DNA of 64,000 bases from contig JBAQYF010000019.1 of NCBI GenBank assembly GCA_049299895.1, positions 71,709 through 135,708 on the forward strand. The letters are read 5' to 3'. Position numbers and translations under genes: made by a program. Below the pieces are notes generated by a model. It was not told where the DNA came from. It saw only the letters and a list, made by a program, of their open reading frames with translations, and made no database searches. Source of the stretch: Candidatus Altiarchaeia archaeon. Lineage in GTDB: Archaea > Altiarchaeota > Altiarchaeia > IMC4 > QMZM01. Positions 22,488 through 61,900 of this stretch are shown piece after piece (the stretch's first letter is position 1; every line of letters begins with the position of its first letter).

Positions 22488-22551
22488 CACATACATTATA
22501 TTCAATAAATCTGGAGCCCTCAGCATTCAGAAAAATATTTAATATCCAAAG

Positions 22552-23485: not shown

Positions 23486-23752
23486 ATGAAACTTAATGAC
23501 CAGACGATTATTTCCCTTGTTGCGGGAGCTTGTTTGCTTGGTTTAGTCGTAGTTCTTAAAAATGTGTTATTGATTACGCCGGAGATCTTATCAAGAGACG
23601 TTATCCTTTATATTATCTGCTATACCGGTTTCATAGCTTCTTTTTCTGCAAAAGATAAAACTAAAAAACAATTCAAACAGGATACGCCTTTATTCTGGAG
23701 CATATTGATCGTACTGATAACGCTGGCAATTATTGCGGTGTATGCTTTATAG
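23486..23752 (+). CDS. Small membrane protein (3 TM), hypothetical
   Basis: 88-aa ORF with three hydrophobic helices. It is the last + strand unit before the strand switch. Confidence 0.35.
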   Translation: MKLNDQTIISLVAGACLLGLVVVLKNVLLITPEILSRDVILYIICYTGFIASFSAKDKTKKQFKQDTPLFWSILIVLITLAIIAVYAL

Positions 23753-34117: not shown

Positions 34118-34121
34118 TTTT

Positions 34122-35294
34122 TTACTTCCTGCGAATAAACAGAAGGACCAGGGCAATGACGGCGACTGCTGCGACTACGGCGATATATCCCGTATTCCCG
34201 CCGCTCTTCTCCAACACGCGCACCGGGATAACCTCTTCCAGGACGTGGGGGCCTAAGCCGTCCTCGTAGCGTATCTCCAGAGAGTAACTGTGATTTCCCG
34301 GAGCTTTCGGAACGTAGGAGAACACCGCAGGAGCATCGTCGTCGGGCTTGAGCTTGCCGAGGTAGGAAACAAGGCTTGTTCCGTCCGGCAGAGACAGCGT
34401 CGCACGCACATTCTCCGCATCCCCGTCCCCCATGTTCTCGACGCGCATCTGTATCTCCGCAGGTTCGCCCGCAACGAATCCGGCGTCCGGAGACCTTTTC
34501 AGGCTTTCTATCCCGAGTTTTGCGGGGTTCTCGACCATCACGCCTATCTGCCCGGCGGATGAATAGCTCTTGCCTCTCTCGTCCACGTAAGACACTTGGA
34601 GCGGTATCGAATACGAACCGGTCGCAACTGATTCGTCGACGACAAAAGACAACTCCAGCAACGTCTCGTTCCCCGGAGGCAGGGATTCTATGACCTTCTG
34701 GCCCGCACCGAGTATTATGAATTTATCGGAAGAAGCGGACACTTTAACGTTCCTCGCAGTGCCGGTGCCGATGTTTCTGTAAGACGCGCGGACGGAAAAA
34801 ACGCCCCCCGAACTGCCGGCCGATCCCATCGCAGGAACATTGTAGACCACGTCCGGGACCCCTACGACTTTTACGTTTATATCATACTCCCGCTCGATTG
34901 CGCCGCGCGATATTTTCACCGTTAGGGGGTACACACCTGACACTGCGCCCGCATCCACCGCAAGGTAATAAGCGTAGTCCTTGGAGCATCCCATGCATAT
35001 CTGCGGCTCGTCCATGTTGCGACCGGTCTTCAGGTAAAAGGGGTACTTCACGTCCAGGGAAACGATAGCGTTATCCATGCTTGCGTTCCCGTAGCCCGGG
35101 ACGCCGTATATGTAGTCGTTATAGACGCGGACCTTCACTGTCACGTCCCGGCCCGGCTCTACCGGTTCGGGAGAAACCTCTTCTGAGACTACCCGCATGG
35201 ACGGAGAATCCTTTATCAACGCGTCCGCCTCCGAGTACGCAGTGAGCGCAAAAAGCGCAGCCAGCAAAAATACAAATAAAACAGGGTTTTTCAT
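34122..35294 (-). CDS. Secreted, C-terminally anchored beta-sandwich surface protein (COG1361/CARDB-like), third module partner
   Basis: Signal peptide MKNPVLFVFLLAALFALTAYS. C-terminal TM (YIAVVAAVAVIALVLLFIRRK). Same architecture as the two COG1361-like paralogs, and first gene of the ABC cluster. Confidence 0.55.
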   Translation of the reverse strand: MKNPVLFVFLLAALFALTAYSEADALIKDSPSMRVVSEEVSPEPVEPGRDVTVKVRVYNDYIYGVPGYGNASMDNAIVSLDVKYPFYLKTGRNMDEPQICMGCSKDYAYYLAVDAGAVSGVYPLTVKISRGAIEREYDINVKVVGVPDVVYNVPAMGSAGSSGGVFSVRASYRNIGTGTARNVKVSASSDKFIILGAGQKVIESLPPGNETLLELSFVVDESVATGSYSIPLQVSYVDERGKSYSSAGQIGVMVENPAKLGIESLKRSPDAGFVAGEPAEIQMRVENMGDGDAENVRATLSLPDGTSLVSYLGKLKPDDDAPAVFSYVPKAPGNHSYSLEIRYEDGLGPHVLEEVIPVRVLEKSGGNTGYIAVVAAVAVIALVLLFIRRK

Positions 35295-45831: not shown

Positions 45832-46431
45832 TCAACGGGCCCATGAGTAGCATAGTTCCTTCAGATCGACGTCATCTATCCTGGGGCACAAACCAGGGTT
45901 CCTGGACTGGATCGCAACGGTCCTGAAACATTCGTCCTTTTTGCTCTGTGTAACAACCATGTCGCATATCGTGGCATTCCTGCCCTGCGACGCGACCTCT
46001 ACGTAGCAGGCGTCCGTCTGAGCGGGATCGCTTATCTTATCGCACAGGGTTATATTCGACATGGTTCTTGCTATCCAGTAATAACAGAGGTCTCTTCCGT
46101 TCAGGACTTTGGCATCCTCGCAAAACGAGGAATCCCCGCGGACCCAGGCGACGCAATAATACTGGTATCCCTCGTCAGGTATCTCGCCGCATATCCTCTG
46201 GTTCCCGGAATACTTGGCGACTTTCACATAACAGATGGATTTGGTATCGTTCACCTGTATCCGGTCGCATGGGGAGGTATCAACGTGCATGAGAGCCGCG
46301 TCCATGTAGCAGCGGTCCAGGTCCACGGTGTCGGAATTCTCCTCGCATATGGCTATCAGATCGGACTTCTTGCTCATGCAGCAGGAGAACAGGATAATGA
46401 ACACTACCAGGATATAAGCCAACTTGTTCAT
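45832..46431 (-). CDS. Cysteine-rich repeat lipoprotein/secreted protein (about eight approximately 25-aa C..D....CY repeats)
   Basis: Probable start MNKLAYILVVFIILFSCC (signal peptide plus lipobox-like). Repeated D..CY...A...D...C units follow. The upstream part of the listed ORF is non-coding. Confidence 0.45.
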   Translation of the reverse strand: MNKLAYILVVFIILFSCCMSKKSDLIAICEENSDTVDLDRCYMDAALMHVDTSPCDRIQVNDTKSICYVKVAKYSGNQRICGEIPDEGYQYYCVAWVRGDSSFCEDAKVLNGRDLCYYWIARTMSNITLCDKISDPAQTDACYVEVASQGRNATICDMVVTQSKKDECFRTVAIQSRNPGLCPRIDDVDLKELCYSWAR

Positions 46432-46703
46432 CGTATAAAGGATTAAACTACAAGGAGATAAATAAACATTTAGATCAATCATGTTATCGCCGCTATTACA
46501 GTTATGGTATTGTTGCATACCCAGCGCACTCCGGAGGGGATCTATATAGTCTAGTATTCGTTCTTGGTAGAAGGCTGACCGTTTACCGTAACAATCTCCC
46601 TCAATCCCCGGATTAAAAGCAGTTCTCAGTCTGCTAACCGGTCGACGCAAGCTTTTTGTCTACATCGCCGAATAATCCCCGGAGGAGACGGTCCCGGAGT
46701 GAT

Positions 46704-47432
46704 TTACGTCTTTATCATGAATCTCACCGCCAGAAACGGCTCCATATTCTGGTGCGGCACTCCTTCCCCGGTGTTGTTGATCTCTATGCTGTAGTCGGAC
46801 ATGTTGAGATCCGGGGGCGGAGCAGCATATAGATTTGTCCGGGTTATTTTGCCCGGGACTGCACCTGTCGGATCGGCGGTAGTTCCGGTATCAGACCCAA
46901 CCAACCAGGCATCGTGCTTGTGGACAGGCATCTGTTCCAGGGTTATGTTAATTGTCTCGTTTCCGCCCCTGGAGCCCTGGGCTCGGTTGATAAGCCCGTC
47001 TCCCTGGCCTTTTCCGATGGGCACCCTGCTACGCATGTCAGGCAACTTGAAAGTAGTGGCACCGTTTCCCCCATACAGGATGCCGATATAAAAATATAAG
47101 GCAGGATAATCCACTATGTTCAGCTCCTGGCCCTCGCACGCAAGCCACCCGGAAGGCACGGTATCCCCGGCAAACATCCTGATCTCCCCGGTATAGACCG
47201 ACGGCCAGCTTGTCCGGCAATCCCCTGCCAGGCATATCCCCGGGGAGGATAACCTGCTGCCCGCGCCTGATATATTTATGTCCCCAGCAAGGCTGACACC
47301 GCCGGACGCATTGACCCCTCCGTTTTTTATTATGACGCTACCGCTCTGGGCCATGAGCATCGCGGAAATCATAAACACTGCGACTACGGACGCAATTTCC
47401 AAACCTCCTGAAGCCTTAAAATTGAATTCCAC
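46704..47432 (-). CDS. Phage tail collar domain protein (MdpB / COG4675-like), paralog 3 of 3, N-terminal TM or signal
   Basis: GEIRMFAGDTVPSGWLACEGQELNIVDYPALYFYIGILYGGNGATTFKLPDMRSRVPIGKGQGDGL...GGNETINITLEQMPVHKHDA matches the tail-collar (PF07484) consensus almost position by position. Confidence 0.7.
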   Translation of the reverse strand: MEFNFKASGGLEIASVVAVFMISAMLMAQSGSVIIKNGGVNASGGVSLAGDINISGAGSRLSSPGICLAGDCRTSWPSVYTGEIRMFAGDTVPSGWLACEGQELNIVDYPALYFYIGILYGGNGATTFKLPDMRSRVPIGKGQGDGLINRAQGSRGGNETINITLEQMPVHKHDAWLVGSDTGTTADPTGAVPGKITRTNLYAAPPPDLNMSDYSIEINNTGEGVPHQNMEPFLAVRFMIKT

Positions 47433-47435
47433 TTT

Positions 47436-48173
47436 TTAAGTTTTTATGATATACGCGATCACCAAGTATGGTTGCATGTTCTCGTGCGAATACCCACTTC
47501 CGGCATTTAGTGTTTCAATAGAACCGTTGGCCATGGATAAGGAGCCCTCCAAGAGAGAATACCGATTGCGGCTGGGATCTATTCCAAAAACATTCCCGCT
47601 TGGAGTACTCGAATCCCCGTTCCCCGCAGCATAAGCCTTCAGCATCCCGGTGTGAGTGTGAAGCGGCATCTGGCTTAAGGTCAAGTTCTCCGACTCGTTG
47701 CCCCCCATCTCGCCAAGGCTTCTATCGGTCAGCCCGTCTCCCTGACCTCCCCCAATAGGAGATCTACCCCTCAGGTCGGGCAGCTTGAAAGTAGTATCAC
47801 CGTCTCCGCCGTATGCGATCCCGATCACGGCGTACAATGCAGGGTAGTCAGCGATGTTCAGCTCCTGGCCCTCGCACGCAAGCCACCCGGAAGGCACATT
47901 ATTCCGTGCAAACATCCTTACTTCTCCAGTTAGGCCCCCGGACCAGGTTGTCCTGCATGTCCCGGCGATGCACAGCTCGGGCGCATATACCTTTGACCCC
48001 GACCCGTAAACGTTTATGTCTCCGGCCGTCTCAATGCTGTCTGAAAGCAACACCTGCCCGTCGCGCACTGTAAAGTTCCCGCTGCAAATCAATGCAGATA
48101 CGAGACAGAACAATAAGACAAATGGAACGATATGCATTTTCTTCAACTTACGCGATTTGTTTTTCAATTTCAC
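47436..48173 (-). CDS. Phage tail collar domain protein (MdpB-like), paralog 2
   Basis: GEVRMFARNNVPSGWLACEGQELNIADYPALYAVIGIAYGGDGDTTFKLPDLRGRSPIGGGQGDGL...NESENLTLSQMPLHTHT. Confidence 0.7.
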   Translation of the reverse strand: MKLKNKSRKLKKMHIVPFVLLFCLVSALICSGNFTVRDGQVLLSDSIETAGDINVYGSGSKVYAPELCIAGTCRTTWSGGLTGEVRMFARNNVPSGWLACEGQELNIADYPALYAVIGIAYGGDGDTTFKLPDLRGRSPIGGGQGDGLTDRSLGEMGGNESENLTLSQMPLHTHTGMLKAYAAGNGDSSTPSGNVFGIDPSRNRYSLLEGSLSMANGSIETLNAGSGYSHENMQPYLVIAYIIKT

Positions 48174-48908
48174 TCAGGTTTTGATCATGTAATTCAATAC
48201 GACATAAGGTTTCATATTATTATGAGGCAGCCCCCCTCCAACAGCAGAAATGTTGGCTCCGGTTGAGGACATGTTTACAAGAACGGTCGTGTTGCTGCTG
48301 TAGCGGAGTGCTCCACCCTGGCTTCCTGGCACGTTCCCGCCAGGGTTATCTCTGTTGGAGGTGCTACTACCGATTGAATGGGCGCTGTGATTATGCACAG
48401 GCAGGTTGACTGCCGAGAGGGTCACGCTCTCGTTCCCTCCGGAAACGCCAAGATCCCACTCCGTCAGACCCTCGCCCTGTCCGGCCGCTATCGGCGCCCT
48501 GCCCCGGAAGTCCGGTATCTTGAACGACGACACGCCGTCTCCGCCATACGTTGTACCTATCACGACAAAGAGATCCGGGTAAGCGGAGGGATCAAGCGAC
48601 GTTCCGTTGCAAAAGAGCCATCCCACAGGCTCATTAGATCCCGCATATAGACGTATCTCGCCAGTGTTGGCCCCGGACGAATCCCAAGCAGTCGTGCAGC
48701 TTCCCGCCAGGCATACCTTCGACGCATATATCTTTGCGCCCGCGCCGGACAAGTTGAGCAAGGAATTTGCCTCTATGCCTCCGGACACGTTAAGGGTTCC
48801 GTTGCGCAGATTAACCTCCCAACTCTGAACGAGATATGATACCAATATCCCTGATGCCGCAGCGAGCAGCAAGTAATATTTCAGCCTGCTTTGACGGAAT
48901 TTACTCAT
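48174..48908 (-). CDS. Phage tail collar domain protein (MdpB-like), paralog 1
   Basis: GEIRLYAGSNEPVGWLFCNGTSLDPSAYPDLFVVIGTTYGGDGVSSFKIPDFRGRAPIAAGQGEGL...NESVTLSAVNLPVHNHSAH. Confidence 0.7.
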   Translation of the reverse strand: MSKFRQSRLKYYLLLAAASGILVSYLVQSWEVNLRNGTLNVSGGIEANSLLNLSGAGAKIYASKVCLAGSCTTAWDSSGANTGEIRLYAGSNEPVGWLFCNGTSLDPSAYPDLFVVIGTTYGGDGVSSFKIPDFRGRAPIAAGQGEGLTEWDLGVSGGNESVTLSAVNLPVHNHSAHSIGSSTSNRDNPGGNVPGSQGGALRYSSNTTVLVNMSSTGANISAVGGGLPHNNMKPYVVLNYMIKT

Positions 48909-48947
48909 TTTCTAAGTAGATAATAATTATATGGGAGTCAATAAATT

Positions 48948-50987
48948 TCATAATAGGGTGTTCGACGCAAGCTTGCCCCGCATGCAAAGGCTGCCCGCCG
49001 AATCGATATAAGCCATATTCGTTCCTGCGCTGTTTTGCACCACAAAAGAGCCCTCCCCGGGATACGAGCAATCCAGATCGTAGTCGCTGCAAGTCGTATC
49101 CTGTATGCAGAGGTTGCCCCATTCGTCTATATATGACACGGTCGCATCGCTGCTGTTTTGCACCAGGAACGTCCCGTCCGGCGGAGCACTGCACGACCCG
49201 CCCGCGATGCAGGATCCAGTCAAACGGATCTCTCCAGCATCGCTAAATGATGCAACCTTGTCGCCCGAACTGTTACGAACATAGAAATACGTAATCTGCG
49301 AACCATCGTCCAAAACCGCCAAAACAGTTACAGTATTATTGCACGAACCGCTAACGCCAAAGGGGATGACAATAGCCCAATACTCTTTCCTGGCTGACGC
49401 AACGCCTTCAGACGTTTCAATGCCTTCAACGCCCAGATCGAAGGCAGACTCATTTACATAACCCGTCGACAGTTTCTTTGCAGACATGCTATCATAGTTT
49501 CCCGGGAATACGCCGTAACTGATATTCCCCGCGCCGATCACACCCGCCCCGGAACATGACATGTCCGCGTTGGCGGCAACCTGTATGTCGATCATTACGT
49601 TCCCCATGTTCGTGATATTGGTGCTGTTGGCAGAACTGCTATTCTGCCCAGGACTCATAGAACCAAAACTTACGCTATCCTCCAAGACCGACAAAGCGAC
49701 CAATTGATCGACGATACTATCCCCTGCAGAAGAATTTGAATTATCAATTGAATCACTGGCAGAAACATTACAGGTCCAGGTCCCGTTCAAAGCCTCATGA
49801 TGCAAAGTGAACGCACAGGATACGTTCCGTTCATTTCCGCTCTCGCTTGTAAAAGAGCAGCTTGAATTAGTATAATGAACGTTGTAATCGTCCGGGTCTG
49901 GCGAGGAAACGGTCTGGTGATAAAGGGTCGCGTCGGCAGAAACGATATCCTGGTACCCATTGACGTCCGTGACCGAAGCGTTGCACAAGACAATGGTATC
50001 GTCTGCCACAGACAGGCCGATATTCCCGCCGTCAGAATCGGAAAGAGAGACTCCGTCAACCACGGGAGCCTCGTTAGACCCTGACAGGTTGAAAGGATAG
50101 CTTGCATTCATCGCCCCGCCGTCGTCGCTTACAAGCACGTTGCCCTCGTTGTCGCACAATTCCGCGTAGGCCCTGTACTCCCCTGCGGGATTGTCGGAAG
50201 TATTCCATGCGCCGGAATTCCACCACACCTGATCAAGCGCAAGCCCGGAGCCTGCCGTAATGATCCTCGGGGAAGAGTCGTTGACTATCGTAGCCTCGTC
50301 GATCCACGCCCCCTGTTCATTCTTCTTTTGCACGACCATGCGCAGGTATGCAAGTATGGAAGTAGACCCGGAGTTGTTCACCTCGGATTTGTCCACGCCG
50401 AAATAAGAGGACCCGGATAACATGAGGCCGCCGGTATTATTGACGTATACGTTCACAGTCCATATCTCCTTGTATTCGTCCCCGTAGGGGATAGTGTAAT
50501 TGTATTCGTAGGTCAATCCGCTGGAAATAGACCCTGCGGGAGTCATCGAGGCGTTGTTCACTGCCGCGGTCCCACCCTTCAGGAGAAGCGTGATCACTGC
50601 CGAATCGAGGCTGGATGCTCCGCCGATGTCGGTCGCGTTGACCCGTATCCTTATATCCTGCCCCTGGGTGAAAGAGGCAGATGCGCCCAGGGAGGAATCG
50701 TATGTCAGGGGCGAGGAGACAGTCATCTGTATGTCGGCTATGGTAATGACCCTTACCTCGCTTACTTCATACGTCCCGGCGGAGGAACAATTAACCCACC
50801 AATAATAGTCTCCCAGATCAAGGGACTCGTTTATGGTCAGGGACTGCTCCGTATTATTCGCTATCTCGCAGGAATCGCAGGCAAAGGCCGGACCTGAAAG
50901 CAGAAAGACGCAGAGACAAACGTAAATGGAACAAACGATTCCATGCGCTCGCATCGTGCGCCCAATCTTCTTTCTATTCGCTTTCAT
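48948..50987 (-). CDS. Large secreted/surface protein, about 680 aa, rich in N-glycosylation sequons and Cys, no recognised domain
   Basis: Likely start MKANRKK with a signal peptide (IVCSIYVCLCVFLLSGPAFA). Many N-x-S/T sequons. Cys-rich C-terminal region. Confidence 0.5.
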   Translation of the reverse strand: MKANRKKIGRTMRAHGIVCSIYVCLCVFLLSGPAFACDSCEIANNTEQSLTINESLDLGDYYWWVNCSSAGTYEVSEVRVITIADIQMTVSSPLTYDSSLGASASFTQGQDIRIRVNATDIGGASSLDSAVITLLLKGGTAAVNNASMTPAGSISSGLTYEYNYTIPYGDEYKEIWTVNVYVNNTGGLMLSGSSYFGVDKSEVNNSGSTSILAYLRMVVQKKNEQGAWIDEATIVNDSSPRIITAGSGLALDQVWWNSGAWNTSDNPAGEYRAYAELCDNEGNVLVSDDGGAMNASYPFNLSGSNEAPVVDGVSLSDSDGGNIGLSVADDTIVLCNASVTDVNGYQDIVSADATLYHQTVSSPDPDDYNVHYTNSSCSFTSESGNERNVSCAFTLHHEALNGTWTCNVSASDSIDNSNSSAGDSIVDQLVALSVLEDSVSFGSMSPGQNSSSANSTNITNMGNVMIDIQVAANADMSCSGAGVIGAGNISYGVFPGNYDSMSAKKLSTGYVNESAFDLGVEGIETSEGVASARKEYWAIVIPFGVSGSCNNTVTVLAVLDDGSQITYFYVRNSSGDKVASFSDAGEIRLTGSCIAGGSCSAPPDGTFLVQNSSDATVSYIDEWGNLCIQDTTCSDYDLDCSYPGEGSFVVQNSAGTNMAYIDSAGSLCMRGKLASNTLL

Positions 50988-51021
50988 AGACCATCTTCGC
51001 ATGATAAATGGATAAAGTAGC

Positions 51022-52923
51022 TCAGCTGACACTGCCAAACCTGACGCAGTTGATATAGTAGGCAGAAGTCTTAGTCCTGCTATATGAGTCGGTTGGGTAT
51101 TGAACAGTCTTCATTGTAGCATAATTCGTATCAACCCCATCATTCGACCAAGTCTGGTAGTAAGACCCTGAGACCCCGAAACAAGTCCTGGCAGCGGAAT
51201 CACATATGTTGGTATTAGCGAACAAAATATTGTAAGGTATTATCGCCGGAAGAGTCCAGTCATTCCACCCTGCATAAGACAACGTATCGCAGTAGTTGCA
51301 TGCAGGATAACTGCTGCCTTGATTGTCGCACGTACCCATGCTTGTTCCCGTAGGGCCCCAGGTATAAGTCGATGCGGAACCCGGGGTCCAGCACTTGTCT
51401 GGCTGGCCTGAATAAGTCGTGCATTGCAGGTAAACAGTCTGCCCCTGGATACTCAGGACGGAGTAGCTGTTGTCGCCTGAACCGCACGTACAGTCCTCGC
51501 ATCCGGCATCGGACGCGTCAGAGTATCCGTCGCAGTCGTTGTCTAAGCCGTCCCCGCAGTTCCCGTTCGCGATGGTCTCCGCAGTGTTGTATCCGCCGCA
51601 GGAACACGAACAGTCGCTGCATGAATCGCAGTTGTAATCCGTATTGCAGCTACCTGCACCGTTACATGTATGCTGGCAGTTGCTGGTCCCGGCGCAATGC
51701 CATGTACCGTCGCACGCACCGGAGTTGCACGAACCGGACGAACAATACGTATTGGAACCGCAGTTGGCGGTCGCATCGTTAGCATCGCAAGCACCTGCAC
51801 CATCGCAATAACCGTCGCCTCCCTGCTGGACGCAGACGCTGGAACAGGCAGTATAACTGGCAGTGCACTGGGTGAAAAGATCTTCATTATCCGCCTGATT
51901 CGCACAACTGCCGCTGGAACACTTCTTGCAGGTTCCGCTGCATGTACTGGAACCCTCGGTATCCTGGGTATTATCCGTTATGCTCACAGGATCAAAAGAA
52001 CTGCCGGAACAACGCTTACAGGAAGGCTGAGAGTCCTCGCCAGCAGACAAGTAGGCGCAGGCATAACCTGAACCGCTGCATGTGTCCGCCCTGCACGAAT
52101 TAGCAGCAGGCGCACCAGCAGTAGAACACTGACTCCACAGATCCTGAGCAGCAGTCTGATAAGTGCACGCCCCGCCAAAACAACGATAACATGTACCGGT
52201 AGAAGAATTACAAATATTAGAACCCTCGGAATCAGCACTATTATCCGCAACACTCACAGGATCAAAAGAACTGCCGGAACAACGCTTACAGGAAGGCTGG
52301 GACTGCTCGCCCGAAGAGAGATATGAGCACGCACCTGAGCCGTCGCATGTCTCCGCCTTGCACGAATCGGCCGACGGAGGAGCAGCAGTTGTGCACTGGC
52401 TGAACAGATCCTGGCCCGCTTCCTCGTTCTGGCAGGATGATCCGTTGACGCATCCCTTGCAGGTAGAACACGCCGCGCCCGAACCATAACACCCGCTGCC
52501 GGCGGTGCACCCGGCATAGGGATGACTGGCGTCATAGCAATAAGCGGCGCAATTTGTTCCGCTGCCGGAGCACCCGAAAGGATCCTGGCATTCTGAAGAG
52601 GTATACGTAGAATTATAGCATGCCAGCGAGCAGTCGGTTACAGTATGATTGCAGCTCCCGGTCATGTTGCAGGAATACAGGCTGTACAGCGAAGCGCTGC
52701 ACCTGCCGAGAAACAGCGTGCAGTTATAACAGGGCTCGGATCCCGAAACCATGAAATTAAAAGTGGGACTACGGCTGCCGGAGGTGGCGTTTTCAGGAGA
52801 AACAAGGTTTACCGAAAACAGCGTCTGCGCATAAACGAATAACATAAGGGCAAGCGCAAGTATGAAAGAGGACAATACCGCATATCCTACGATCCGTCTC
52901 CCGTTTTCTCCTTTTGTTTCCAT
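51022..52923 (-). CDS. Cys-rich secreted protein with internal approximately 90-aa tandem repeats, MopE-like CxDGxDNDCDG metal-binding motif and DUF1566 (Lcl C-terminal)-like end
   Basis: N-terminal TM or signal. Repeats ...SQCTTAAPPSADSCKAETCDGSGACSYLSSGEQSQPSCKRCSGSSFDPVS... occur at least twice. NGNCGDGLDNDCDGYSDASDAGC is present. The C-terminal ...WNDWTLPAI...YYINCVRFG resembles DUF1566. Confidence 0.5.
   Translation of the reverse strand: METKGENGRRIVGYAVLSSFILALALMLFVYAQTLFSVNLVSPENATSGSRSPTFNFMVSGSEPCYNCTLFLGRCSASLYSLYSCNMTGSCNHTVTDCSLACYNSTYTSSECQDPFGCSGSGTNCAAYCYDASHPYAGCTAGSGCYGSGAACSTCKGCVNGSSCQNEEAGQDLFSQCTTAAPPSADSCKAETCDGSGACSYLSSGEQSQPSCKRCSGSSFDPVSVADNSADSEGSNICNSSTGTCYRCFGGACTYQTAAQDLWSQCSTAGAPAANSCRADTCSGSGYACAYLSAGEDSQPSCKRCSGSSFDPVSITDNTQDTEGSSTCSGTCKKCSSGSCANQADNEDLFTQCTASYTACSSVCVQQGGDGYCDGAGACDANDATANCGSNTYCSSGSCNSGACDGTWHCAGTSNCQHTCNGAGSCNTDYNCDSCSDCSCSCGGYNTAETIANGNCGDGLDNDCDGYSDASDAGCEDCTCGSGDNSYSVLSIQGQTVYLQCTTYSGQPDKCWTPGSASTYTWGPTGTSMGTCDNQGSSYPACNYCDTLSYAGWNDWTLPAIIPYNILFANTNICDSAARTCFGVSGSYYQTWSNDGVDTNYATMKTVQYPTDSYSRTKTSAYYINCVRFGSVS
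51981..52300. repeat. Intragenic tandem duplication, about 270-bp period. The 44-bp segment ACAGGATCAAAAGAACTGCCGGAACAACGCTTACAGGAAGGCTG is identical at about 51983 and about 52254.
   Basis: Direct comparison of the two segments. They correspond to the protein-level repeat of the Cys-rich gene. Confidence 0.7.
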
Positions 52924-52971: not shown

Positions 52972-55900
52972 TCAAACGCCTGCCGGAGGATCCGTGAGAT
53001 TCACTATCTCATTTGGCCCGTATGAATCTTTTTTGGTTGCGACCGTCAGGGAAACGTTCGCTTTGACGCTGAATGAACCGTTAGTCCAATTAATATTATT
53101 TGCAGAGTCATTAACATAAATCGTGTAATTATAAGTCCCCCATTTCCAGGTTCCAGTATAGTTGTATTGCCATAGGTCCGAGACATTAGTCATCGAGTAA
53201 TTGGTCTCCAAGCCTCCAGGAGGCGTTATGCCTATCCAGACCGTGCTTATCCCGAATGACGAAGATGCAGAAGCATTTATGGAAACGTTGTAGCCGTAGC
53301 CTAACGGATCCGGCCCGTCGACGACGTCTGTTATATTCGGATTAAGCCAATCAGATGATACGCTCAGGTTATAATCGTCCGAGCGCCCGCTGTGCCCCTC
53401 AGAATCCGAGCAGTTAACAGACCAGTTATAAATTCCGTCAGGCAGGAATAAATTGAAATACTGATCCGTGTTTTTTGTTACCAACGTGTTTGTTTGGCCG
53501 ACTACATCATTTAGCAAAAGATCGCAGAAAACGATATCATAGCCCCCGCTCACGTTGTAGGTGAAATTCACAGTCCTTGATTCAGTCCATTCAGAGTTAT
53601 TGGCCGGCGCGATTAAAGACACATAAGGCGGCGAGCGAGCAATCGTAAGATACCTTGAGTTCGAAGAATCAGTATAATTCGAGTTTCCTGCAGAGTCGTT
53701 GGCCCAGCCGTAATACGAATAAGTCCCGCTTGACAGGTTCGTAACATTGACATAGAACAGATAAGTAGAGCTATTGTACTTCTGGAATTCAGACCGGTAC
53801 TGAAACCAAATTTCCCGGGAGGACAAAGTACGATTATATAACCTAACCTCGTCGATAGATCCGTTGAAATCGAAATAAAGAGGATACGCGAAGGACATAA
53901 CGCCAACGGCAAATCTATCCCCCTGGGCAGCCCGGTAAACAATCGGACCGGTTAGGACCGAACTAGTCTCGTTGACGCCGTTTAGATATAACTGCGCTCC
54001 GCTGGATGAATTATAAGTCAAAGCCACGTAATACCAAACATCGGTTGTGACCGAGGAAACAGATTGAATATTTATCTCATTCGAATTGTTAAGATCATCC
54101 AGATTAATCGACACCCATATCTTGTTATTGAGCGAATACACATTGTAGCCCGACCCCCAATTATTCCTGCCCCGGCTAAGGATAAACTGAGTACCGGAAA
54201 CCATATTAAACTTGACCCACGCCGAAACCGTGAGATAATCGCTTGGAGCCAAAACCGAAGAATTACCAAACAACACATAATCGTTATCCCCGTCAAAACT
54301 CAAAGCCGAACCAAACCTCCCGGAAGAATTCCAAACAGCATCCAGGACAGTACCGTTATTCCCATACCGGGAAACATCCACAGCAAAAGTAGAATTCTCA
54401 CCGATCGCCGAATTATTATTGAAATTCATATCCAATACGAGCGAGTTATCGTATATCGAATAATTCGAGCCATTCCAATTGAATTTGAAGAAATCAAGAT
54501 TCTGCTCGGTGATCGATATATTGACCTGCGTCGAATTAACGGTAATCGTCGACCCGTTCCCGGCAGTCGGGAAAGAGAAGTTAAGGGCAGGAGCAATCGT
54601 GTCCGCCGAAACGGTCAGATACCTTGGACTCGCCGCAGTATACGTGTTCGTATAATTCGAATTCCCTGACGTGTCGTTCGCCCAGCCGTAGTATGTGTAC
54701 GTGCCGGAGGATAGATTAGTCAGGTTCGCGTAGAACCGGTACTGTGTCGAATTGTATTTCATAAACTCCGACTGGTAGTGCATCCAGACCTCCTGCGCGG
54801 ACAGCGAGCGGTTGTACACGCGGACCTCGTCGATGGAGCCGTTCCAGTACCAGTTCGTCCATTTGTTCGCACCTATCTCCAGAGGAGCTGCAGACGAAAA
54901 ATCGCCAATGCTGCCCGAGGCGCTATTAGCCAAAACACCATTTATATAAAGACGTATAGTATTGGAGCCGTTATAGACCCCCGTCAAATGAACCCATCTA
55001 TTCGTAGCCGAAGAATCTAACTTCTCAGCATATAAATAGACGCCCCCGTGGTAAGTAAGAAAACGCCACTGCAAAGAATCCCTTTTATAATACAAACTAA
55101 AATAGCCAGTTGAAACACCCTTGCTAACAATACCCAAATGAGCACTACCCGAAACATCCACAAGATAAACCCAAGCCTCCACCGTAAAAGCAGTAGCGTT
55201 CGAAAAATTAACAGAAGGATTATGAGAAACATTAAAATAAACAGCAGACCGATTATACTTAAAAGCACCACCAAACCGCCCAGACGCATTCCACACAGGA
55301 CAAGAAGACAAAAAACAAGAAGCATTATTACCATATCCGGAAGAATCAACCACATAAGACGAATTATCACCCAAAACAGAATTATTATTGAAATTCAACG
55401 CCAAAACAAGCGAATCATCATAGAAGGTATAATTCGTACCGTTCCAGTTGAACTTGAAGGAATCAAGGTTCTGCTCTTCTATCGAAATATTCACCTGGGT
55501 CCAGTTGACGGTGATCGTTGATCCGTTCCCGGCGGTCGGGGAGGAAAAATTTAGGGCAGGCGCCATTGTGTCTGGTTCAATCAATGAAATGGTCAGATAC
55601 CTCGGGCTCGACGCATTATACCCATTCGTATAATTGGAATTCCCGGCGGAGTCGTTGGCCCAGCCGTAATACGAATAACTCCCGCTTGAAAGGTTCGACA
55701 GGTTGGCGTAGAAACGATAAGTCGTCGAATTGTACTTCGCAAACTCCGCCTGATAATGCATCCAGACCTCCTGCGCGGACAACGCACGATCATACACGCG
55801 GACCTCGTCGATCATCGACTTCGTATCGCTCTGAGCGATGTGAACATACGCTGACATAAAGCCAGGCCAGCCGTCAACATACGAACCGACCAAAACGCCA

Positions 55901-58900
55901 TCCCGATAACTGACCCTGGACCCGGAAACATTGGAGAAAACAACCGCATAATGATGGAATCCTTCCTCCAGAACGATAGAAGGAGAATCAAAATAAGAAC
56001 CCTCCACGCGCGCCACAGGCATAACCATCGACACACCGCTGTCGTTATAATACTCAAAAGTAATACGACTAGACCCATCCATGTCAAAATTCAAATAATC
56101 ACCCCAATCAACAGAAGAATCATCATCCCTCAACCAAAACTCAAAAGTAGACGAAGAAGTATTAATACCGACAACACAACTCACACCGTCATCACTGTCC
56201 AAAAACTGATAAGCACCGCCAAACCTACCAGAAGAATTCCACACAGCCCCACCAGACACATCACAAACAAAACCATTACCAGAAACATCCAAAACCAGAG
56301 TCGAATTCTCCCCGATAGCTGAATTGTTGTTGAAATTCAAAGCCAACACAAGCGAATCATCATAGAGAGAATAATTCGATCCGTTCCAGTCGAACATGAA
56401 CGAATCAAGATTAGGCTCGTCAATGGAAATATTCACCCGAGTCCAATTGACACTGATCGTCGAACCGTTCCCGGCGGTGGGATCTTCAAACGATAACACG
56501 GGAGCGGTACTGTCTGCTTCTATTGTGAATCCGTCGGCCGCGGATAGGTTGTCGTATCCTGTGTTGTGGTCGACGCAGCTTATGTTGTAATAGTAGGTGC
56601 CGCCCGACGCAAAAGACCTATTGTATTCGTAGACGCCGGAAGATGCGTTATAAGACATGTTCACGGCCTCGCTCCAGGACCCGGAGCTGTTCTCTGAATA
56701 CTCGCAGTATATACCCGTGCCATTTACAGGATCCCCCGAAGTGCCATTCGTATAGTTGGCATAGAAGAGCACCTGCTCCCCAGCATACTTGCTCTCAAGG
56801 TCGGTGTCATCCCATATAGTAAGGTTGCTGTTATAGCCCATGCCGCCGGCATAAGCCGTGAATGACGCCACAGTAAACCAGAAATGAGTCCCATTCTCCC
56901 CGTAGGAGTAATCGCCGGTTGAATTCTTCTCCCATGAACCACAGACCCCGGAGGAATAATTCCAATCCGTGCAGTGATAGATATAATCGATCCTGAAACT
57001 CTTAGGGAGGGTGATGAGCGCGTTCTGCATACTGAACTGCGTAGTATCCAACGCAACTATCGTCGAGATGTTACGGGCATCAGAAGGAAGACCCCCCTCA
57101 AGGGATGCGAACTGCGGGCCCACTGATACATTACCCAAAGTAAGATTCACACCACGCAAGACCATGCTCCCGATCCCGGACGAAATGTTAATATCATATA
57201 GGTCGTAGAGCGCAGCATACCTGCTAATCCTCGAATCAGCCAGAGAAAAGTTCTTTGACTCCAAAAGATAACCATTCCGATCAAAAACATCGGCAGAAGA
57301 ATCCAGAACACCCAGCGAAGAATTATACGCAGTCACGTTCAAGAACGCAGTCGAAGGATCCACAAATAAATCAGCGTGAGTAGAAGAACTCATGTTCTCC
57401 GAATAATTAGAGACATACACACACCAGTGTATGTCCGACTCAGAAGAAAGAACAGTCCTGGAAAGATACGAACCAATACCCCTACGCTCAATATCCCCGG
57501 GATAAGTATGAACAGAAATCTCACCCCCATCCACAGAACAAGACATACCAGTATTCTTCACCTTAACAGTCAGATTAGCCGCATCAACCCAACCAAAATC
57601 ATCCTCAACTGATATGTTCAATACAGCAGCATCCCCCGCCATATAACGCGAATTACCGCGCAGATTAATAGCATCAAGATCCGTACGCACCCGAACCAAA
57701 CGGAAGATAATAGAGGAATTCCCTTGAGCAGCAGAGTAATTAACGCCCGCATCCGAATAATTGACCGAGAGATTATAATAACCAGGCGCATAAACAGTCT
57801 TATCAAATGACAGGCCACAATGACCCGATGAATTGGTCGCGTTCATGCCCAGGTATGAGCCGTTCAGATAGAACGAACAATTCGCAAGGACACCCACAGA
57901 GGAATTATAAAACAGGTAGACTCTGCCCTGCACAGTCAAATTATTACCAACTATGCCCAACACATCCTCATGAGGAAGAGAACTGGTATAATTACCCCGG
58001 AAAACACTTCCACCATTAACCGGACTGATCAAATCCGCACACGCATACCAAGACACATTCACAGACAAAGAAACGTTGTTGTTCGATTCGCCGGACTCCG
58101 CAAAGGAGCCATCCGAGTCAACCGCCCAGAGGAACGAATGACTGCCTCCTGAAGCAGTCCAGTTAAAAACGATCACATGAGACGCATTTCTCGCAATATC
58201 CACCACGACCGATGAATTCAGGACCGAATCCACATAGAAAGACAAATTCAAACCGGACACATTCACAACGTCATTATTATGAACCGTCAGATTAAAACTC
58301 ACATTATCAAACTCCCCGGCAGAAACAGGAACATAAGAGAGGTCACTGACATTCACCGAGAAATCAAAGGCATTACCCGCAACCAGAACATCGTAGGCGG
58401 AAGTGAAATTAACGTTACCCGCAGCATCCTGCACGTAGGCAGTATAATTATAATAACCGTCAGAGAGGTTTGTGAAATTCCGATACAACCGGTTTAGACC
58501 TGCGTTGTATGAGGCATTGATCTCCTCGGGGGAGAGTGCGCGATTCCAGATGCGCACTTCGTCGATGGAACCGTTGAATTGCTCCCCGCTTCTCCCGCCG
58601 ATCCTGAAAGACGACGCCGGCCAGTCGAAGCTCTTATAAGCGCAAGAAGACACACTGGTGCCGTTAAGATATATCGAGATATTTGTAGAGTTGGACGTTA
58701 CCGTCACATAATTCCAGGAATTGCAGGGCATGGGGCTAAATGAACATATAGAAGTATAAGTACCATTGATGAATGCACCCACATAAAAAAGGCTCACGTT
58801 ATTCATTCTAATACTGGGTTTATGGTCTGCTCCTTCAAAGATGTTTCTTGTAGAATCGCCTGCAGACCGTGGATTCAGCCAGGCAGAAAAAGACCAGTCT

Positions 58901-61900
58901 GAGTCATTAAAAACACCGTCAAATGCAGGGGAATAAGGAACGGAAATAAAATCATCCAAGCCGTCAAAAACATATGCTCCTCCAAATTTACCTGAAGAAA
59001 CAAACAGGGGGCATGAATTATCAGAGCAAGTACCATTGTTCCCATAACTGCTCCAGTCCCGGACAAACGTAGAATTCTCCCCTGCCTCATTATTGAACCT
59101 CCACCACCCGACAAGCGACCGGTTAAAATCAATGAACGCCGTCCCCGCGGGGGATGAGCCGTTCACCGACACGTTCACATACAACGAGTTCACGTTCGTC
59201 GACGCATTAGATAACAGCGTCGGCGAAGCAAAGCCGATAAGAGGATATATCGTATCAACAGCCAAAGTCCTCGCGCCTGTTTCGCTGATGTTTCCTGCCG
59301 AATCGTTCGCCCAGCCGTAATATATATACGTGCCGGACGACAGATTCGTCAGATTCGCATAGAACCTGTACTCGGATGTATTGTATTTTGAGAATTCTGA
59401 TTGATAATGGAGCCATATCTCCTGCGGGGAGAGGGAACGATTATAGATGCGGACTACGTCGATGGATCCGTTAAAAGGAAATCCGTCGCCTCTCTTGCCT
59501 ACATAAAGACTCTGATAAGATTTAGTCAGGCCATGTGCGAGAGTCTTGTTGTTTTCCAGCCGGCCATCGAGATAAACATCAGCTTCAAGAGTTGAATTCA
59601 CGTAGGTGAAGGCGACATGATGCCAGGACGTATCCACACTGGTCGATCCCGTGACGGCATCATCGTTAATACCATAGTTGATATATCCTTTCAAAACATC
59701 GTTTACCACGCAGAAACCGTATGAAGCAGTATATGCTTTATCGACCATGCAGTGAACCGTTCCTGTTGAAGACCTCTTGATCCACGCCTCAATGGTCAAG
59801 GCTTCCAGGATGTCCAGGCTGGACGCGTTCCCGCAGCTGGCATAGTCCAGCAGGCCGTTGAATGTATAAGCTCCGGAATACTTGCCATTGAGGGTATATA
59901 GCGGCCGCCCATAGGTCGTCCAACCGGAATTATGCGTGTCTCCGTACGCGGCTGACTTGTCTGAGAAACCGATCAGCATTCCGTTGTTTCCTGCCCCGGA
60001 GAGGTCTGATGCAAGGCTTCCTGATGCGTTGACAAAAGGGATATAAAGGACGAGACCGGTTTCGTTGCTGTAATTGCCCAAATACTGCTGGTACGCCTCT
60101 TCTCCGGAAACCGACCGGTTATATACTCGTACCTCGTCTACAGAGCCGTTAAATAACCTGTTAGGGGAGATAGCAGAATGAGTCCCAATGCTCAGGGGGA
60201 TCTCGTTTATTGAAGCATTGATCGTCTGAAGCGCGTCATCCTTCAGCGCGCCGTCTACGTACAGCATGACATGAGTCCCATTCCACGTGCCCAGAATATG
60301 ATACCAGCGATTGGTGCTATATACGTCGCCTGTATTTGTCGAAATCTGTCCGACGCTATTGGCTATGACAAACCAGAAATTACCGACAGAATCACTAGTA
60401 GAAGTCGTCGAAATAGTGTAACTGGAGTTCTTGAAAAAATCGTCAAATGATTTGCCCACCATGCTGGCCCCGTATTTGAATGCCCTCACATAGACCCATG
60501 CAGAGACCGTCCCTGTGGAAGACAAATGAAGGGACTCGCTATCCGAGACATTGACCCAGTCATTGCTTCCGTCAAACTTGAGGGCAGACCCTCTCACAGT
60601 ACAGTTATTCCCGTATGGAGAGACATCATTTGCGCCTGTGGAATTCTCCCCGATCGCAGAATTATTGTCGAAGTTTAACGCCAGCACAAGAGAATCATCG
60701 TATATCGAATAATTCGTCCCGTTCCAGTTGAATTTGAACGTATCAAGGTTCTGCTCGTCTATCGAGATATTCACCTGCGTCCAGTCTCTGTTGATAGTCG
60801 TCCCGTTCTCCCCGGTCGGGGACGAAAAATTCAGGAACGGCGCCGTCGTATCCGCCGCTGCAAAAGAAACCGTCAAATATCTTGGACTTGTCGCAGTGTA
60901 CGTATTCGTGTAGGCGGAATTACCTATCGTGTCATTGGCCCAGCCGTAGTAACTGTATGTGCCGTCAACAAGGCCTGTAACATTCGAGTAGAACTGCCAC
61001 TGCGTAGCGTCGTACTTTTTCAGGGTGGAAAGATAATGGACTTTTATTTCCTGAACGGATAGAGAGCGGTTGTATATTCTTACGTCGTCTATGCTCCCGT
61101 TGAAATACCTGGAACCGCAGCTATATCCTATTTTCAGGGAGTTGTTTGTTTCTTTCAGGGGGCCTAGGGCGGCAGTGCAGTTCTTGGTAAGCACCCCGTT
61201 AAGATAATGATAAACCTGGGTTCCGCTCCTCTGAACGACGAAATTCTGCCAAACCTCGCTCGTGAGCTGCGTTGAACTGTTACTTGCTTCATTGCAATAA
61301 CCGGTTACGCCGATAAGTAATGAAAAAGTGAACGCATTGGTAATGGCTCCATCCTGCTGGATGGTAAATCCTTCAAGATGGCAGTTATGCCTGTCCAAGA
61401 GGCCGGCATAAGTAGCTGATTGGTTTGCCCCGGGCTTAACCCACATTGAAATGGTCATGTCATTGACCGCAGAATCCAGACTGGCCGAATCGTTCACAGA
61501 GGCATAATCATCGAAGCCATTAAACCTCATCCCAAATCCCTCTTTACCGGGGTAAGTCCATAAAGGCCTGCCGTAAGTAGTCCATCCGCTTGCAGAGGTG
61601 TCGCCTGCTCCTGCGGTTGTGTTGGCATAGTTCGTGAGGTTCCCGTGGTTGTTCATTCCGGACTTGTCTGAGGCGTTCGTGCCGGAGGCGTCTGAGAACG
61701 GGAGGTATAGAACAAGTCCCGTATCGTTGCTGTAGACGCCTTTGTATTGTTCGACGATCTCCGCTGCTGTCAGTGCGCGATTGTAGATGCGCACGTCGTC
61801 GATGGAGCCGTTGTAGTATCCAACGTTCTCCTTGCTTTTTCCGATATACAGCGTCGATGCCCCGGTGGAAAGCGCGTGAGGAGCGGATATGTCAGGCGTG

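What the first reader, a model, noticed from the sequence alone, without database searches (positions are those of the whole stretch)
46704..48908. Three tandem phage-tail-collar (MdpB-like) proteins in an archaeal genome
Three adjacent paralogous genes of about 245 aa each carry an N-terminal hydrophobic anchor or signal, a Gly-rich beta-helix-like stem with paired cysteines (C.AG.C.T.W), and a C-terminal domain. That C-terminal domain matches the phage tail collar / microcystin-dependent protein consensus nearly residue for residue (GEIR.FAG...P.GWL.C.GQ.L....YP.L...IG..YGG.G.T.FKLPD.R.R.PIG.GQG.GL). The family is typical of phage tail fibres and bacterial secreted proteins and is uncommon in archaea. 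Here it is triplicated directly beside a giant adhesin island. This suggests horizontally acquired receptor-binding modules that were later amplified.
Basis: partly seen in the sequence, partly recalled or inferred. Interest (0 to 1): 0.6.

Follow-up and report, generated by a model that had tools for sequence, protein, structure and literature searches.

The report
Archaeal three-gene phage-fibre-like adhesin cassette
Three adjacent genes in an uncultivated archaeon encode secreted proteins built like the receptor-binding tip of a phage tail fibre; they most likely assemble into one three-chain knob, and they sit on a 2.8-kb cassette inserted at the end of a surface-protein gene.

Summary
Three tightly packed minus-strand genes (242/245/244 aa) each encode a signal peptide, a 50-aa stem with a C-x4-C hairpin, and a T4 gp12-type Collar/HxH/head domain (Pfam Collar 84-94 bits). 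The host is a Candidatus Altiarchaeia MAG.

A triplet is the family's usual cellular unit, not a local oddity. Across 34 complete clusters, 17 hold three modules and one holds six, arranged as 1+1+1, 2+1, 1+2 or three-in-one fusions. Giant adhesins often lie beside them. Three consecutive Collar proteins of a virophage have been shown to form a 1:1:1 heterotrimer, so a heterotrimeric, metal-clamped binding knob is the best reading here (inferred, not shown).

The archaeal copies form their own clade (86-99.7% bootstrap) and share a stem that bacterial triads lack. One stem-bearing gene was therefore probably triplicated before two archaeal lineages split.

The triad travels with a new three-repeat C-terminal extension of the upstream surface protein. 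Together they form a ~2.8-kb cassette that displaced the old gene end; a related genome has the empty site. Codon usage is host-like and dN/dS is 0.24-0.36.

Verdict: new variant of a known kind, moderately interesting.

The parts
48174..48908 (-). Collar gene p1 (244 aa): signal about res 1-30 (48819-48908), stem res 31-82 (48663-48818) with CLAGSC at 48696-48713, Collar res 83-139 (48492-48662), HNH res 172-174 (48387-48395), variable head res 175-228 (48225-48386), HNNMKP strand (48207-48224)
47436..48173 (-). Collar gene p2 (245 aa; identical to NCBI MFZ2456172.1 from its TTG start): signal 48084-48173, stem 47928-48083 with CIAGTC at 47955-47972, Collar 47757-47927, HTH 47652-47660, head 47487-47651, HENMQP 47469-47486
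46704..47432 (-). Collar gene p3 (242 aa): signal 47343-47432, stem 47190-47342 with CLAGDC at 47217-47234, Collar 47019-47189, HKH 46914-46922, head 46755-46913, HQNMEP 46737-46754
48951..49292 (-). C-terminal extension of the 696-aa surface protein (res 583-696): three ~38-aa repeats 'F.V.NS.G..(V/M)(A/S).(I/F)D..G.L'. Present only where the triad is present, and the most conserved part of the block (94% nt identity to L001)
46575..49324 (-). Inferred inserted cassette (~2.75 kb): extension + 39-nt spacer + three Collar genes + ~130 bp
49325..49410 (-). Repeat copy 1: in-frame gene segment encoding ...EYWAIVIPFGVSGSCNNTVTVLAVL, at the cassette's 5' junction
46490..46574 (-). Repeat copy 2: degraded remnant of the displaced original 3' end of the gene (in-frame TAG). 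It resembles the L053 gene end
48909..48947 (-). 39-nt spacer upstream of p1 with AT-rich CATATAATTATTAT; a possible archaeal TATA box (not tested)
48948..51038 (-). 696-aa secreted surface protein. Residues 286-696 are 75% identical to the C-terminus of the L001 giant protein
51022..52923 (-). 633-aa Cys-rich surface protein with a weak Lcl_C/DUF1566 match; island context
52972..63912 (-). 3646-aa giant adhesin-like protein (10x Laminin_G_3, CARDB, Big_13); island context

Best explanation
The three genes form one operon for three paralogous secreted proteins. Each has a cleavable Sec-type signal, one copy of a fibre-shaft repeat closed by a C-x4-C hairpin, and a T4 gp12-type receptor-binding domain. 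That domain consists of a Collar, an HxH metal site on the trimer axis, a variable head and a conserved C-terminal strand.

The most likely mechanism is that one chain of each paralog co-assembles into a single 1:1:1 heterotrimeric knob on a short stalk. The six histidines would clamp a metal ion, and three different head loops would form an asymmetric binding face for a surface glycan or similar ligand. The knob would act in cell-surface adhesion together with the adjacent adhesin island.

In evolutionary terms, one stem-bearing Collar gene, ultimately of bacterial or phage type, was triplicated before the window and L001 lineages split. The triad now travels with a new three-repeat C-terminal extension of the upstream surface protein, as a ~2.8-kb cassette. 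The cassette was recombined into the 3' end of that gene and displaced the old gene end.

Shown: the domain identities, the operon packing, the conserved HxH aligned to the gp12 zinc ligands, the variable head, purifying selection, cassette presence/absence with a remnant, and the prevalence of triads and fusions. Inferred: heterotrimer formation, extracellular display, glycan binding, and any docking to the extension.
For: Domain: Collar at 84-94 bits. PDB sequence hits to T4 gp12 (1ocy, 1pdi, 5iv5) and to the cyanophage A-1(L) fibre 8kec. Foldseek top hits are gp12 5iv5 at E 2e-6 and 8kec, plus 84 viral models at E<=1e-3.

Metal site: HxH is invariant in 56 family members. It aligns with gp12 'YHKHA' at 1ocy positions 116-118, which correspond to His445/447 by the offset to 5iv5.

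Three-per-unit rule: among 34 complete clusters, 17 have 3 modules and 1 has 6. Architectures are 1+1+1 (15 cases), 2+1, 1+2 and (1+2)x2, and there are about 10 three-in-one fusions.

Experimental precedent: three consecutive PF07484 proteins of virophage DSLV2 co-purify as a 1:1:1 heterotrimer of about 55 kDa, form ~16-nm fibres and bind Synechococcus cells (PMC12724248).

Operon: 0 and 3 nt between genes, same frame.

Export: a K/R n-region, a hydrophobic core and an invariant Ser, and 5-9 N-x-S/T sequons per protein. The stem belongs to a fibre-shaft repeat found in giant DPANN/CPR proteins.

Binding tip: the head is the most variable region (paralogs 22-30% identical, orthologs 69-79%), while Collar and the C-terminal strand are conserved.

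Maintained function: dN/dS is 0.24-0.36 for all three genes.

Cassette: one 3.4-kb block is 85.6% identical between the window and L001. The gene end is duplicated, and the copy after the triad is degraded. L053 is an empty site with the same flanks.

Adhesin linkage: an ORF of >=1000 aa lies within 3 kb in 11 of 21 triad loci, against about 10% background. These neighbours are identified as autotransporter, T9SS, RTX, cadherin and SLH adhesins.
Against: No multimer prediction or experiment was possible, so the heterotrimer rests on comparative genomics and one virophage study. T4 gp12 and most phage fibres are homotrimers, and 13 of 34 clusters are singletons, so homotrimers are viable in this family. 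The monomer model is confident only in the Collar core (overall pLDDT 68.7). The natural triple-fusion model failed (pLDDT 48). Bacterial triad proteins lack signal peptides, so 'surface knob' may not generalise across the family. The p696 C-terminal module occurs without Collar genes in L053-L055, so the triad is not an obligate partner of that protein. The signal-peptide call is by inspection, not by a trained predictor, and a retained N-terminal anchor is possible. The phylogeny is NJ only.
Confidence: 0.55

Rival explanations
1. Three separate homotrimeric knobs: each paralog forms its own gp12-like homotrimer. The triplication then simply broadens the range of ligands the cell can bind.
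For: gp12 and the cyanophage fibre are homotrimers (PDB entries). The head regions differ strongly between paralogs (22-30% identity). Singletons are common in the family (13 of 34 clusters). L031 has 5-6 tandem copies, which is not a multiple-of-three logic in that locus.
Against: It does not explain why exactly three modules recur in unrelated lineages, why two-domain fusions always sit next to one single-domain gene, or why three-in-one fusions exist. The virophage homotrimers were less stable than the heterotrimer (PMC12724248).
Confidence: 0.27
2. A bacterial-type triad was acquired en bloc by the archaeon. The apparent monophyly of the three copies then reflects gene conversion or long-branch artefact.
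For: Triads are common in bacteria. The weak sister group is a bacterial triad, L029 (support 0.39). Identity of p1 to p2/p3 (43-44%) is about the same as its identity to the best bacterial copies (42%).
Against: The six archaeal copies are monophyletic at 99.7% (33 taxa) and 86.5% (81 taxa). All three share the same 55-aa stem and signal layout, which no bacterial triad member has. An en bloc origin would need three independent additions or conversion.
Confidence: 0.12
3. Remnant tail-fibre genes of an integrated archaeal virus or tailocin.
For: The proteins hit many PHROG tail-fibre families (phrog_9116 at 92-111 bits) and 579 phage records.
Against: No other viral genes are present. The flanks are housekeeping genes (PhzF, radical SAM, Ham1, AIM24, IMPase, TgtA) and adhesins. 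Viral contigs hold no close relative. The proteins have signal peptides, which virion proteins assembled in the cytoplasm do not need. All three genes are under purifying selection.
Confidence: 0.03
4. Freely secreted lectin- or bacteriocin-like trimers that act on other cells, unrelated to the adjacent adhesins.
For: Cleavable-looking signals and no recognisable anchor after cleavage. The triad is dispensable for the p696 module.
Against: No toxin or defence domain was found. The triad is strictly co-inherited with a new C-terminal extension of the upstream surface protein. Linkage to giant adhesins recurs in bacteria.
Confidence: 0.1

Closest known systems
T4 gp12 short tail fibre receptor-binding domain (PDB 1OCY/1H6W/5IV5) and the cyanophage A-1(L) tail fibre (8KEC)
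   Same: Collar domain, HxH aligned with the gp12 zinc ligands, conserved C-terminal strand, variable head.
   Different: The known proteins are homotrimeric virion parts with long N-terminal shafts. Here the proteins are short (about 215 aa mature), have a signal peptide, are chromosomal, and come as three paralogs in an operon.
Tripartite PF07484 tail proteins of virophage DSLV2 / Aquatic Virophage 1 lineage (PMC12724248)
   Same: Three consecutive, co-oriented Collar genes of similar size. Shown there to form a 1:1:1 heterotrimeric fibre with a variable head patch.
   Different: The virophage proteins are capsid-attached and lie next to capsid genes. They have no signal peptide and no C-x4-C stem. 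Homology between the two triads was not compared directly.
Bacterial COG4675 / 'microcystin-dependent protein' MdpB-type small Collar proteins (relatives of Microcystis MrpB and Rhizobium RhiB)
   Same: 42-50% identity over the whole Collar-HxH-head domain. Same tandem triad organisation. Frequent adjacency to giant adhesins.
   Different: Bacterial members start at the GEIR motif with no signal or stem. The archaeal copies form their own clade and carry an ~80-aa N-terminal extension.
C-terminal cassette displacement in polymorphic toxin loci (Rhs/CdiA 'orphan' ends), from general knowledge
   Same: A new 3' gene end plus accessory genes is recombined in, and the old 3' end is left as a degraded remnant downstream.
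   Different: No toxin or immunity domains are present. The payload is a three-repeat extension plus three fibre-tip genes. This is an analogy of process, not family membership.

Membership tests
Pfam PF07484 Collar / gp12-type receptor-binding domain | Profile match above the gathering score over the whole model | tested here: met
   84.5-93.9 bits against a cutoff of 24, model positions 1-57/57, in all three proteins
Pfam PF07484 Collar / gp12-type receptor-binding domain | HxH metal-binding pair on the trimer axis, downstream of Collar | tested here: met
   Invariant in the 56-sequence alignment. It aligns to gp12 H-K-H at 1ocy positions 116-118 and to 8kec H-Q-H. Metal binding itself was not tested.
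Pfam PF07484 Collar / gp12-type receptor-binding domain | Fold similarity to solved gp12-type structures | tested here: met
   Foldseek probability 1.00, E 2e-6 to 2.5e-4, to 5iv5, 8kec, 1pdi, 5lye and 1ocy. TM-scores are low (about 0.3) because a monomer model of an intertwined trimer is compared.
Pfam PF07484 Collar / gp12-type receptor-binding domain | Trimeric assembly | not testable with these tools
Phage, virophage or tailocin tail fibre (virion component) | Encoded among virion structural genes | tested here: not met
   Flanks are housekeeping and adhesin genes. PHROG hits are limited to the three proteins. Viral contigs hold no close relative.
Virophage-type tripartite heterotrimeric Collar fibre (PMC12724248) | Three consecutive co-oriented PF07484 genes | tested here: met
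Virophage-type tripartite heterotrimeric Collar fibre (PMC12724248) | 1:1:1 heterotrimer | not testable with these tools
   Supported only indirectly, by the three-module rule and natural fusions.
Bacterial MdpB-type (COG4675) cellular Collar triads | Full-length homology of Collar + HxH + C-terminal strand | tested here: met
   4112 hits at E<1e-5, with 42-50% identity over residues ~80-245.
Bacterial MdpB-type (COG4675) cellular Collar triads | Protein of ~170-200 aa that starts at the GEIR motif (no N-terminal extension) | tested here: not met
   The archaeal copies have a 77-79-aa extension, whereas the domain starts at residue 2-4 in L003, L006, L009 and L029.
Bacterial MdpB-type (COG4675) cellular Collar triads | Orthology of each copy to a bacterial positional class | tested here: not met
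   The archaeal six are monophyletic at 99.7% and 86.5%.
DPANN/CPR fibre-shaft repeat (unnamed; no Pfam model) | Motif ..D(V/I)NG.IN.SG...K(I/V)Y.PE.C(L/I).G.C(K/R)T.W | tested here: met
   The stem profile hits 135 clusters at E<=1e-3, up to 152 bits and usually multi-copy. Sequences are, and no Pfam model covers the repeat.

The most novel reading that the evidence does not exclude
Cellular Collar triads may be a widespread, undescribed class of heterotrimeric receptor-binding knobs that serve as exchangeable tips for giant surface adhesins in bacteria and archaea. In this archaeon, the knob and a matching three-repeat docking extension would be delivered together as a swappable 3' cassette. 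That would be a tip-swapping system for cellular adhesins, analogous to tail-fibre tip exchange in phages.
Probability: 0.2. Interest if true: 0.8.

Novelty: new variant of a known kind. Interest (0 to 1): 0.6.

Why it matters
Phage receptor-binding domains are normally studied as homotrimeric virion parts. This locus, and the comparative pattern behind it, suggests something different. Cells in both prokaryotic domains keep the same fold as a three-gene unit, probably a heterotrimer, linked to giant adhesins. Such a heterotrimer would give an asymmetric binding face with three independently evolving loops, a simple route to new specificities.

For archaea, it adds a concrete and testable component to the poorly understood surface and adhesion apparatus of Altiarchaeia. 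It also shows a cassette mechanism by which surface-protein ends are rewritten. In addition, it flags two unannotated modules for curation: the C-x4-C shaft repeat and the three-repeat extension.

Tried and rejected
1. A shared stem motif between the Collar proteins and the C-terminus of the 696-aa neighbour (CIAGGSC versus CLAGxC). The stem HMM finds nothing outside the six archaeal Collar proteins, so this is rejected.
2. Concatenating the three in-frame genes for a pseudo-multimer prediction. The tools refuse translations that contain stop codons.
3. Modelling a natural three-in-one fusion (P0004) to see pseudo-trimer packing. The model has pLDDT 48 and is unusable.
4. Homology search with the 125-aa extension alone. 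No scored hits.
5. Looking for archaeal relatives in GTDB species genomes, IMG/VR and JGI metagenome contigs. None were found, but these scans are limited to exact peptide patterns of p2.
6. Class III (pilin-type) signal peptides. By inspection there is no [KR]-[GA] cleavage motif before the hydrophobic stretch, so this is rejected.
7. Defence-system models (PADLOC). No hits.
8. A recent-HGT compositional signal. None was found.
9. *Microbacterium* phage minor tail proteins that align from residue 26. The stem part is weak and lacks the cysteines, so they are not the source of the stem.
10. The p696 C-terminal module as an obligate partner of the triad. Rejected, because the module occurs without Collar genes in L053-L055. 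Only the 125-aa extension co-occurs with the triad.
11. Two literature searches returned mostly irrelevant papers.
Full report
OBSERVATION

The three ORFs exist as described. They lie on the minus strand at 48174-48908 (p1, 244 aa), 47436-48173 (p2, 245 aa) and 46704-47432 (p3, 242 aa). They share one reading frame and are separated only by TGA|GTG and TAA-aaa-GTG, that is 0 and 3 nt, so this is an operon with tight coupling.

Each protein matches Pfam PF07484 (Collar) over the whole model at 84.5-93.9 bits, against a cutoff of 24. The paralogs are 40-50% identical, so the duplication is old.

Each starts with a K/R-rich segment and a 19-residue hydrophobic core (mean Kyte-Doolittle 1.65-2.35) that ends at an invariant Ser. 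I read this as a cleavable Sec-type signal. That is by inspection, since no predictor was available.

The motif C-[LI]-A-G-x-C-x-T-x-W is invariant. The host is archaeal. The next gene is archaeosine TgtA (TIGR00432, 508 bits), and p2 is identical to MFZ2456172.1, 'tail fiber protein [Candidatus Altiarchaeia archaeon]', on a 137-kb contig.

ANATOMY OF THE PROTEINS

Collar is not the C-terminal domain. It spans residues ~83-139 and is followed by:
- a neck with an invariant HxH (172-174 in p2);
- a variable head (~175-229);
- a conserved H-x-N-M-x-P-Y strand.

The family profile aligns 'lPaHtHt' with T4 gp12 'MSYHKHA' at 1ocy positions 116-118. By the offset to the full-length entry 5iv5 this is His445/His447. 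It also aligns with 'LPSHQHG' of the cyanophage A-1(L) fibre 8kec. From established knowledge of gp12 (Thomassen et al. 2003, recalled, not read here), those histidines from three chains coordinate a zinc ion on the trimer axis.

HxH is invariant in 56 aligned family members. An AF2 monomer model is confident in the Collar core (pLDDT 89-95) and only moderate elsewhere (mean 68.7), as expected for an intertwined trimer. Foldseek puts gp12 (5iv5, 1pdi, 5lye, 1ocy) and 8kec on top (E 2e-6 to 2.5e-4), and 84 viral models match at E<=1e-3.

Between paralogs the head is 22-30% identical, against 52-78% in Collar. Between window and L001 orthologs the head is also the least conserved part (69-79%). 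The proteins carry 5-9 N-x-S/T sequons each, which fits an extracellular archaeal glycoprotein.

THE STEM IS A REUSABLE FIBRE-SHAFT REPEAT

A 55-residue profile of the stem was searched exhaustively against 1.84 billion representatives. It hits 135 clusters at E<=1e-3. Many are giant and multi-copy: 3504 aa with six copies, 2024 aa with six copies, 982 aa with three.

The consensus is '...KLDVNGsINISG..KIYtPEICLAGDCKTsWP'. No Pfam model covers it. Named members come from Woesearchaeota and Parcubacteria. The archaeal Collar proteins are therefore a fusion of signal + one shaft repeat + gp12-type tip. Bacterial relatives lack this N-terminal part; their domain starts at residue 2-4.

THE TRIPLET IS THE FAMILY'S NORMAL CELLULAR UNIT

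The first bacterial homolog I looked up (P0083) sits in a 166/172/174-aa triad directly after a giant cadherin-repeat protein. I scanned all fetched loci with a domain HMM. Clusters not cut by a contig edge hold the following numbers of modules:

| Modules per cluster | Clusters |
|---|---|
| 3 | 17 |
| 6 | 1 |
| 2 | 3 |
| 1 | 13 |

One of the doubles has a third copy 1.3 kb away.

Every two-domain fusion I checked lies next to one single-domain gene: L022 is 2+1, L023 (*Cellulomonas*) is 1+2, and L024 (*Fusibacter*) is (1+2)x2. About ten proteins carry three Collar modules in one chain, several with PEP-CTERM-like tails.

A 2025 study showed that three consecutive PF07484 proteins of virophage DSLV2 co-purify as a 1:1:1 heterotrimer, form ~16-nm fibres and bind *Synechococcus* cells. 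It also found the triad conserved in 45 virophages (PMC12724248). In the searchable library this is the only paper linking heterotrimers with Collar fibres. I found nothing on cellular triads.

Together these results make 'one chain of each paralog per trimer' the best explanation for the number three. It remains an inference for this locus.

LINK TO GIANT ADHESINS

An ORF of at least 1000 aa lies within 3 kb of the triad in 11 of 21 loci, and several of the negatives have short flanks. The background in distal parts of the same loci is about 10%. The neighbours are adhesins with different export routes:
- He_PIG + autotransporter (*Dyella*, *Stenotrophomonas*);
- LamG + T9SS tail (*Hymenobacter*);
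- Big_12 + RTX (*Massilia*);
- cadherin;
- SLH.

The loci are not independent, and some long ORFs in GC-rich DNA may be spurious, so the ratio is indicative only. Bacterial triad proteins have no signal peptide, which leaves their export route unexplained.

ORIGIN OF THE ARCHAEAL TRIAD

In bootstrapped NJ trees the six archaeal copies (window + L001) are monophyletic in 99.7% of replicates (33 taxa) and 86.5% (81 modules). Window and L001 pair by position in 100% of replicates, with topology ((p2,p3),p1).

By contrast, proteobacterial triads show positional orthology across genomes, and other triads (L029, L031) are lineage-specific. Because all three archaeal copies share the signal + stem, the simplest history is that one stem-bearing gene was triplicated before the two archaeal lineages split.

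Phage proteins are not closer than cellular bacterial ones. GC (52-55%), GC3 (60-63%) and codon usage fall within the host range, so nothing marks a recent transfer. dN/dS between the window and L001 is 0.24-0.36 for all three genes.

THE TRIAD IS PART OF AN INSERTED CASSETTE

The window and L001 share a single contiguous block: window 49896-46507 matches L001 7088-10477 at 85.6% nt identity. Sequence outside the block is unrelated (32-46%).

L053, from a related genome, has the upstream genes of the window (an Lcl_C-like protein and a p696 homolog, ~74% nt identity) and the downstream genes of L001 (CobA, a 320-aa gene, LemA, GIDE). It has no Collar genes: its p696 homolog ends 34 nt before CobA.

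The last ~85-110 bp of the L053 gene matches twice in both the window and L001. One match is in frame inside p696 (window 49410-49325). The other is just after the triad (window 46574-46490), where it is degraded, with an in-frame TAG in the window and a 1-nt gap in L001. In L001 that copy runs into the original TAA and the same downstream sequence as L053. L053 resembles the remnant type across the whole repeat, so it looks like a never-occupied site rather than a deletion hybrid.

The cassette (~46575-49324) encodes a new 125-aa C-terminal extension of p696 plus the three Collar genes. The extension has exactly three ~38-aa repeats (residues 583-696), and these are found only here and in L001. 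It is the best conserved part of the block (94% nt). Homologs of the p696 module that lack the triad also lack the extension (60-71% coverage).

The process resembles displacement of C-terminal ends in polymorphic toxin loci (general knowledge), but no toxin or defence domain is present. Whether the three-repeat extension is a docking site for the three-chain knob is an attractive but untested idea.

WHAT IT IS NOT

It is not a prophage or tailocin remnant. The flanks are PhzF-like, radical SAM, GNAT, transglutaminase-like, Ham1, AIM24, PRTase, IMPase and TgtA genes. PHROG hits are confined to the three proteins, and viral contigs hold no close relative.

FUNCTIONAL HINTS FROM KNOWN CELLULAR RELATIVES

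These are thin. *Microcystis* mrpA/mrpB are co-transcribed, and MrpB resembles RhiB, the Collar-bearing protein of the quorum-regulated rhiABC operon. MrpC is an extracellular glycoprotein implicated in cell-cell contacts (PMC3328848, PMC13133039).

LIMITS

- No multimer modelling was possible.
- The phylogeny is NJ only.
- The collection scans depend on exact peptide patterns of p2, so 'rare in archaea' is supported but not measured.
- The loci are partly redundant.
- The signal-peptide assignment is by eye.

VERDICT

This is a known domain in a new variant: an archaeal, secreted, stem-fused Collar triad carried on a gene-end cassette. It is an instance of a broader, essentially undescribed three-module rule for cellular Collar proteins.

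Noticed in passing
window 47928-48083, 47190-47342, 48663-48818 (stems); proteins P0121-P0254: The stem is one copy of an unannotated fibre-shaft repeat (..KLDVNGsINISG..KIYtPEICLAGDCKTsWP). It occurs in multiple copies in giant proteins of Woesearchaeota, Parcubacteria and unnamed metagenome organisms. No Pfam model covers it.
   Followed up: partly
L003, L005, L006, L009, L011, L014, L015, L029, L035, L036, L038, L041 (bacterial loci): Tandem triads of ~170-200-aa Collar genes are common in bacteria. The proteins have no signal peptide, yet they sit beside exported giant adhesins (T5SS, T9SS, T1SS). How or whether they reach the surface is unexplained.
   Followed up: partly
P0003, P0004, P0019, P0033, P0050, L018:97-2295: Single polypeptides carry three Collar modules with shortened heads, several ending in PEP-CTERM-like anchors. 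One (P0050) is labelled as coming from a Rotaria (rotifer) assembly, which suggests contamination or transfer.
   Followed up: no
L003:7644-7952, L004:4966-5274, L023:4052-4414; P0111: DUF6916 (PF21880) genes recur next to bacterial triads and are fused to a Collar domain in P0111. GNAT acetyltransferase genes also recur (L003, L004, L029).
   Followed up: no
window 48909-48947 (minus strand); L001 8037-8075: The 39-nt spacer between p696 and Collar p1 contains AT-rich CATATAATTATTAT, and L001 has AAATATAATCGAC at the same position. This is a possible archaeal TATA box that would give the triad its own promoter.
   Followed up: no
window 46400-50300 versus L001 6680-10600: Nucleotide identity varies along the shared block: extension 94%, Collar genes 85-88%, pre-junction p696 77%, remnant 73%, and unrelated beyond both ends. 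The block sits in different contexts in the two genomes, so this gene end looks like a recombination hot spot.
   Followed up: partly
window 51022-52923: The 633-aa protein is extremely Cys-rich, with internal repeats (..QPSCKRCSGSSFDPVS..) and a weak Lcl_C/DUF1566 C-terminal match (22.6 bits, below cutoff). A homolog precedes the p696 homolog in L053.
   Followed up: no
window 45832-46650: The listed 272-aa ORF overlaps the cassette remnant at its 5' end. The real start is probably the internal MNKLAYILVVF... (lipoprotein- or signal-like). It is Cys-rich with repeated 'C(Y/F)..VA' units and has only a 23% identical relative in L001, which is not adjacent to the triad.
   Followed up: no
window 1-4000 and 21000-24000: GC content drops to about 0.39-0.41, against about 0.50 elsewhere in the window. 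Not examined.
   Followed up: no
window 32921-35294: A CARDB-domain protein (390 aa) lies next to an FtsX-like permease gene. This is another surface-related pair, outside the island.
   Followed up: no
L031:3129-6273: A metagenome contig has five to six tandem single-module Collar genes that are each other's closest relatives (96.5% bootstrap). This is an exception to the three-module pattern.
   Followed up: no
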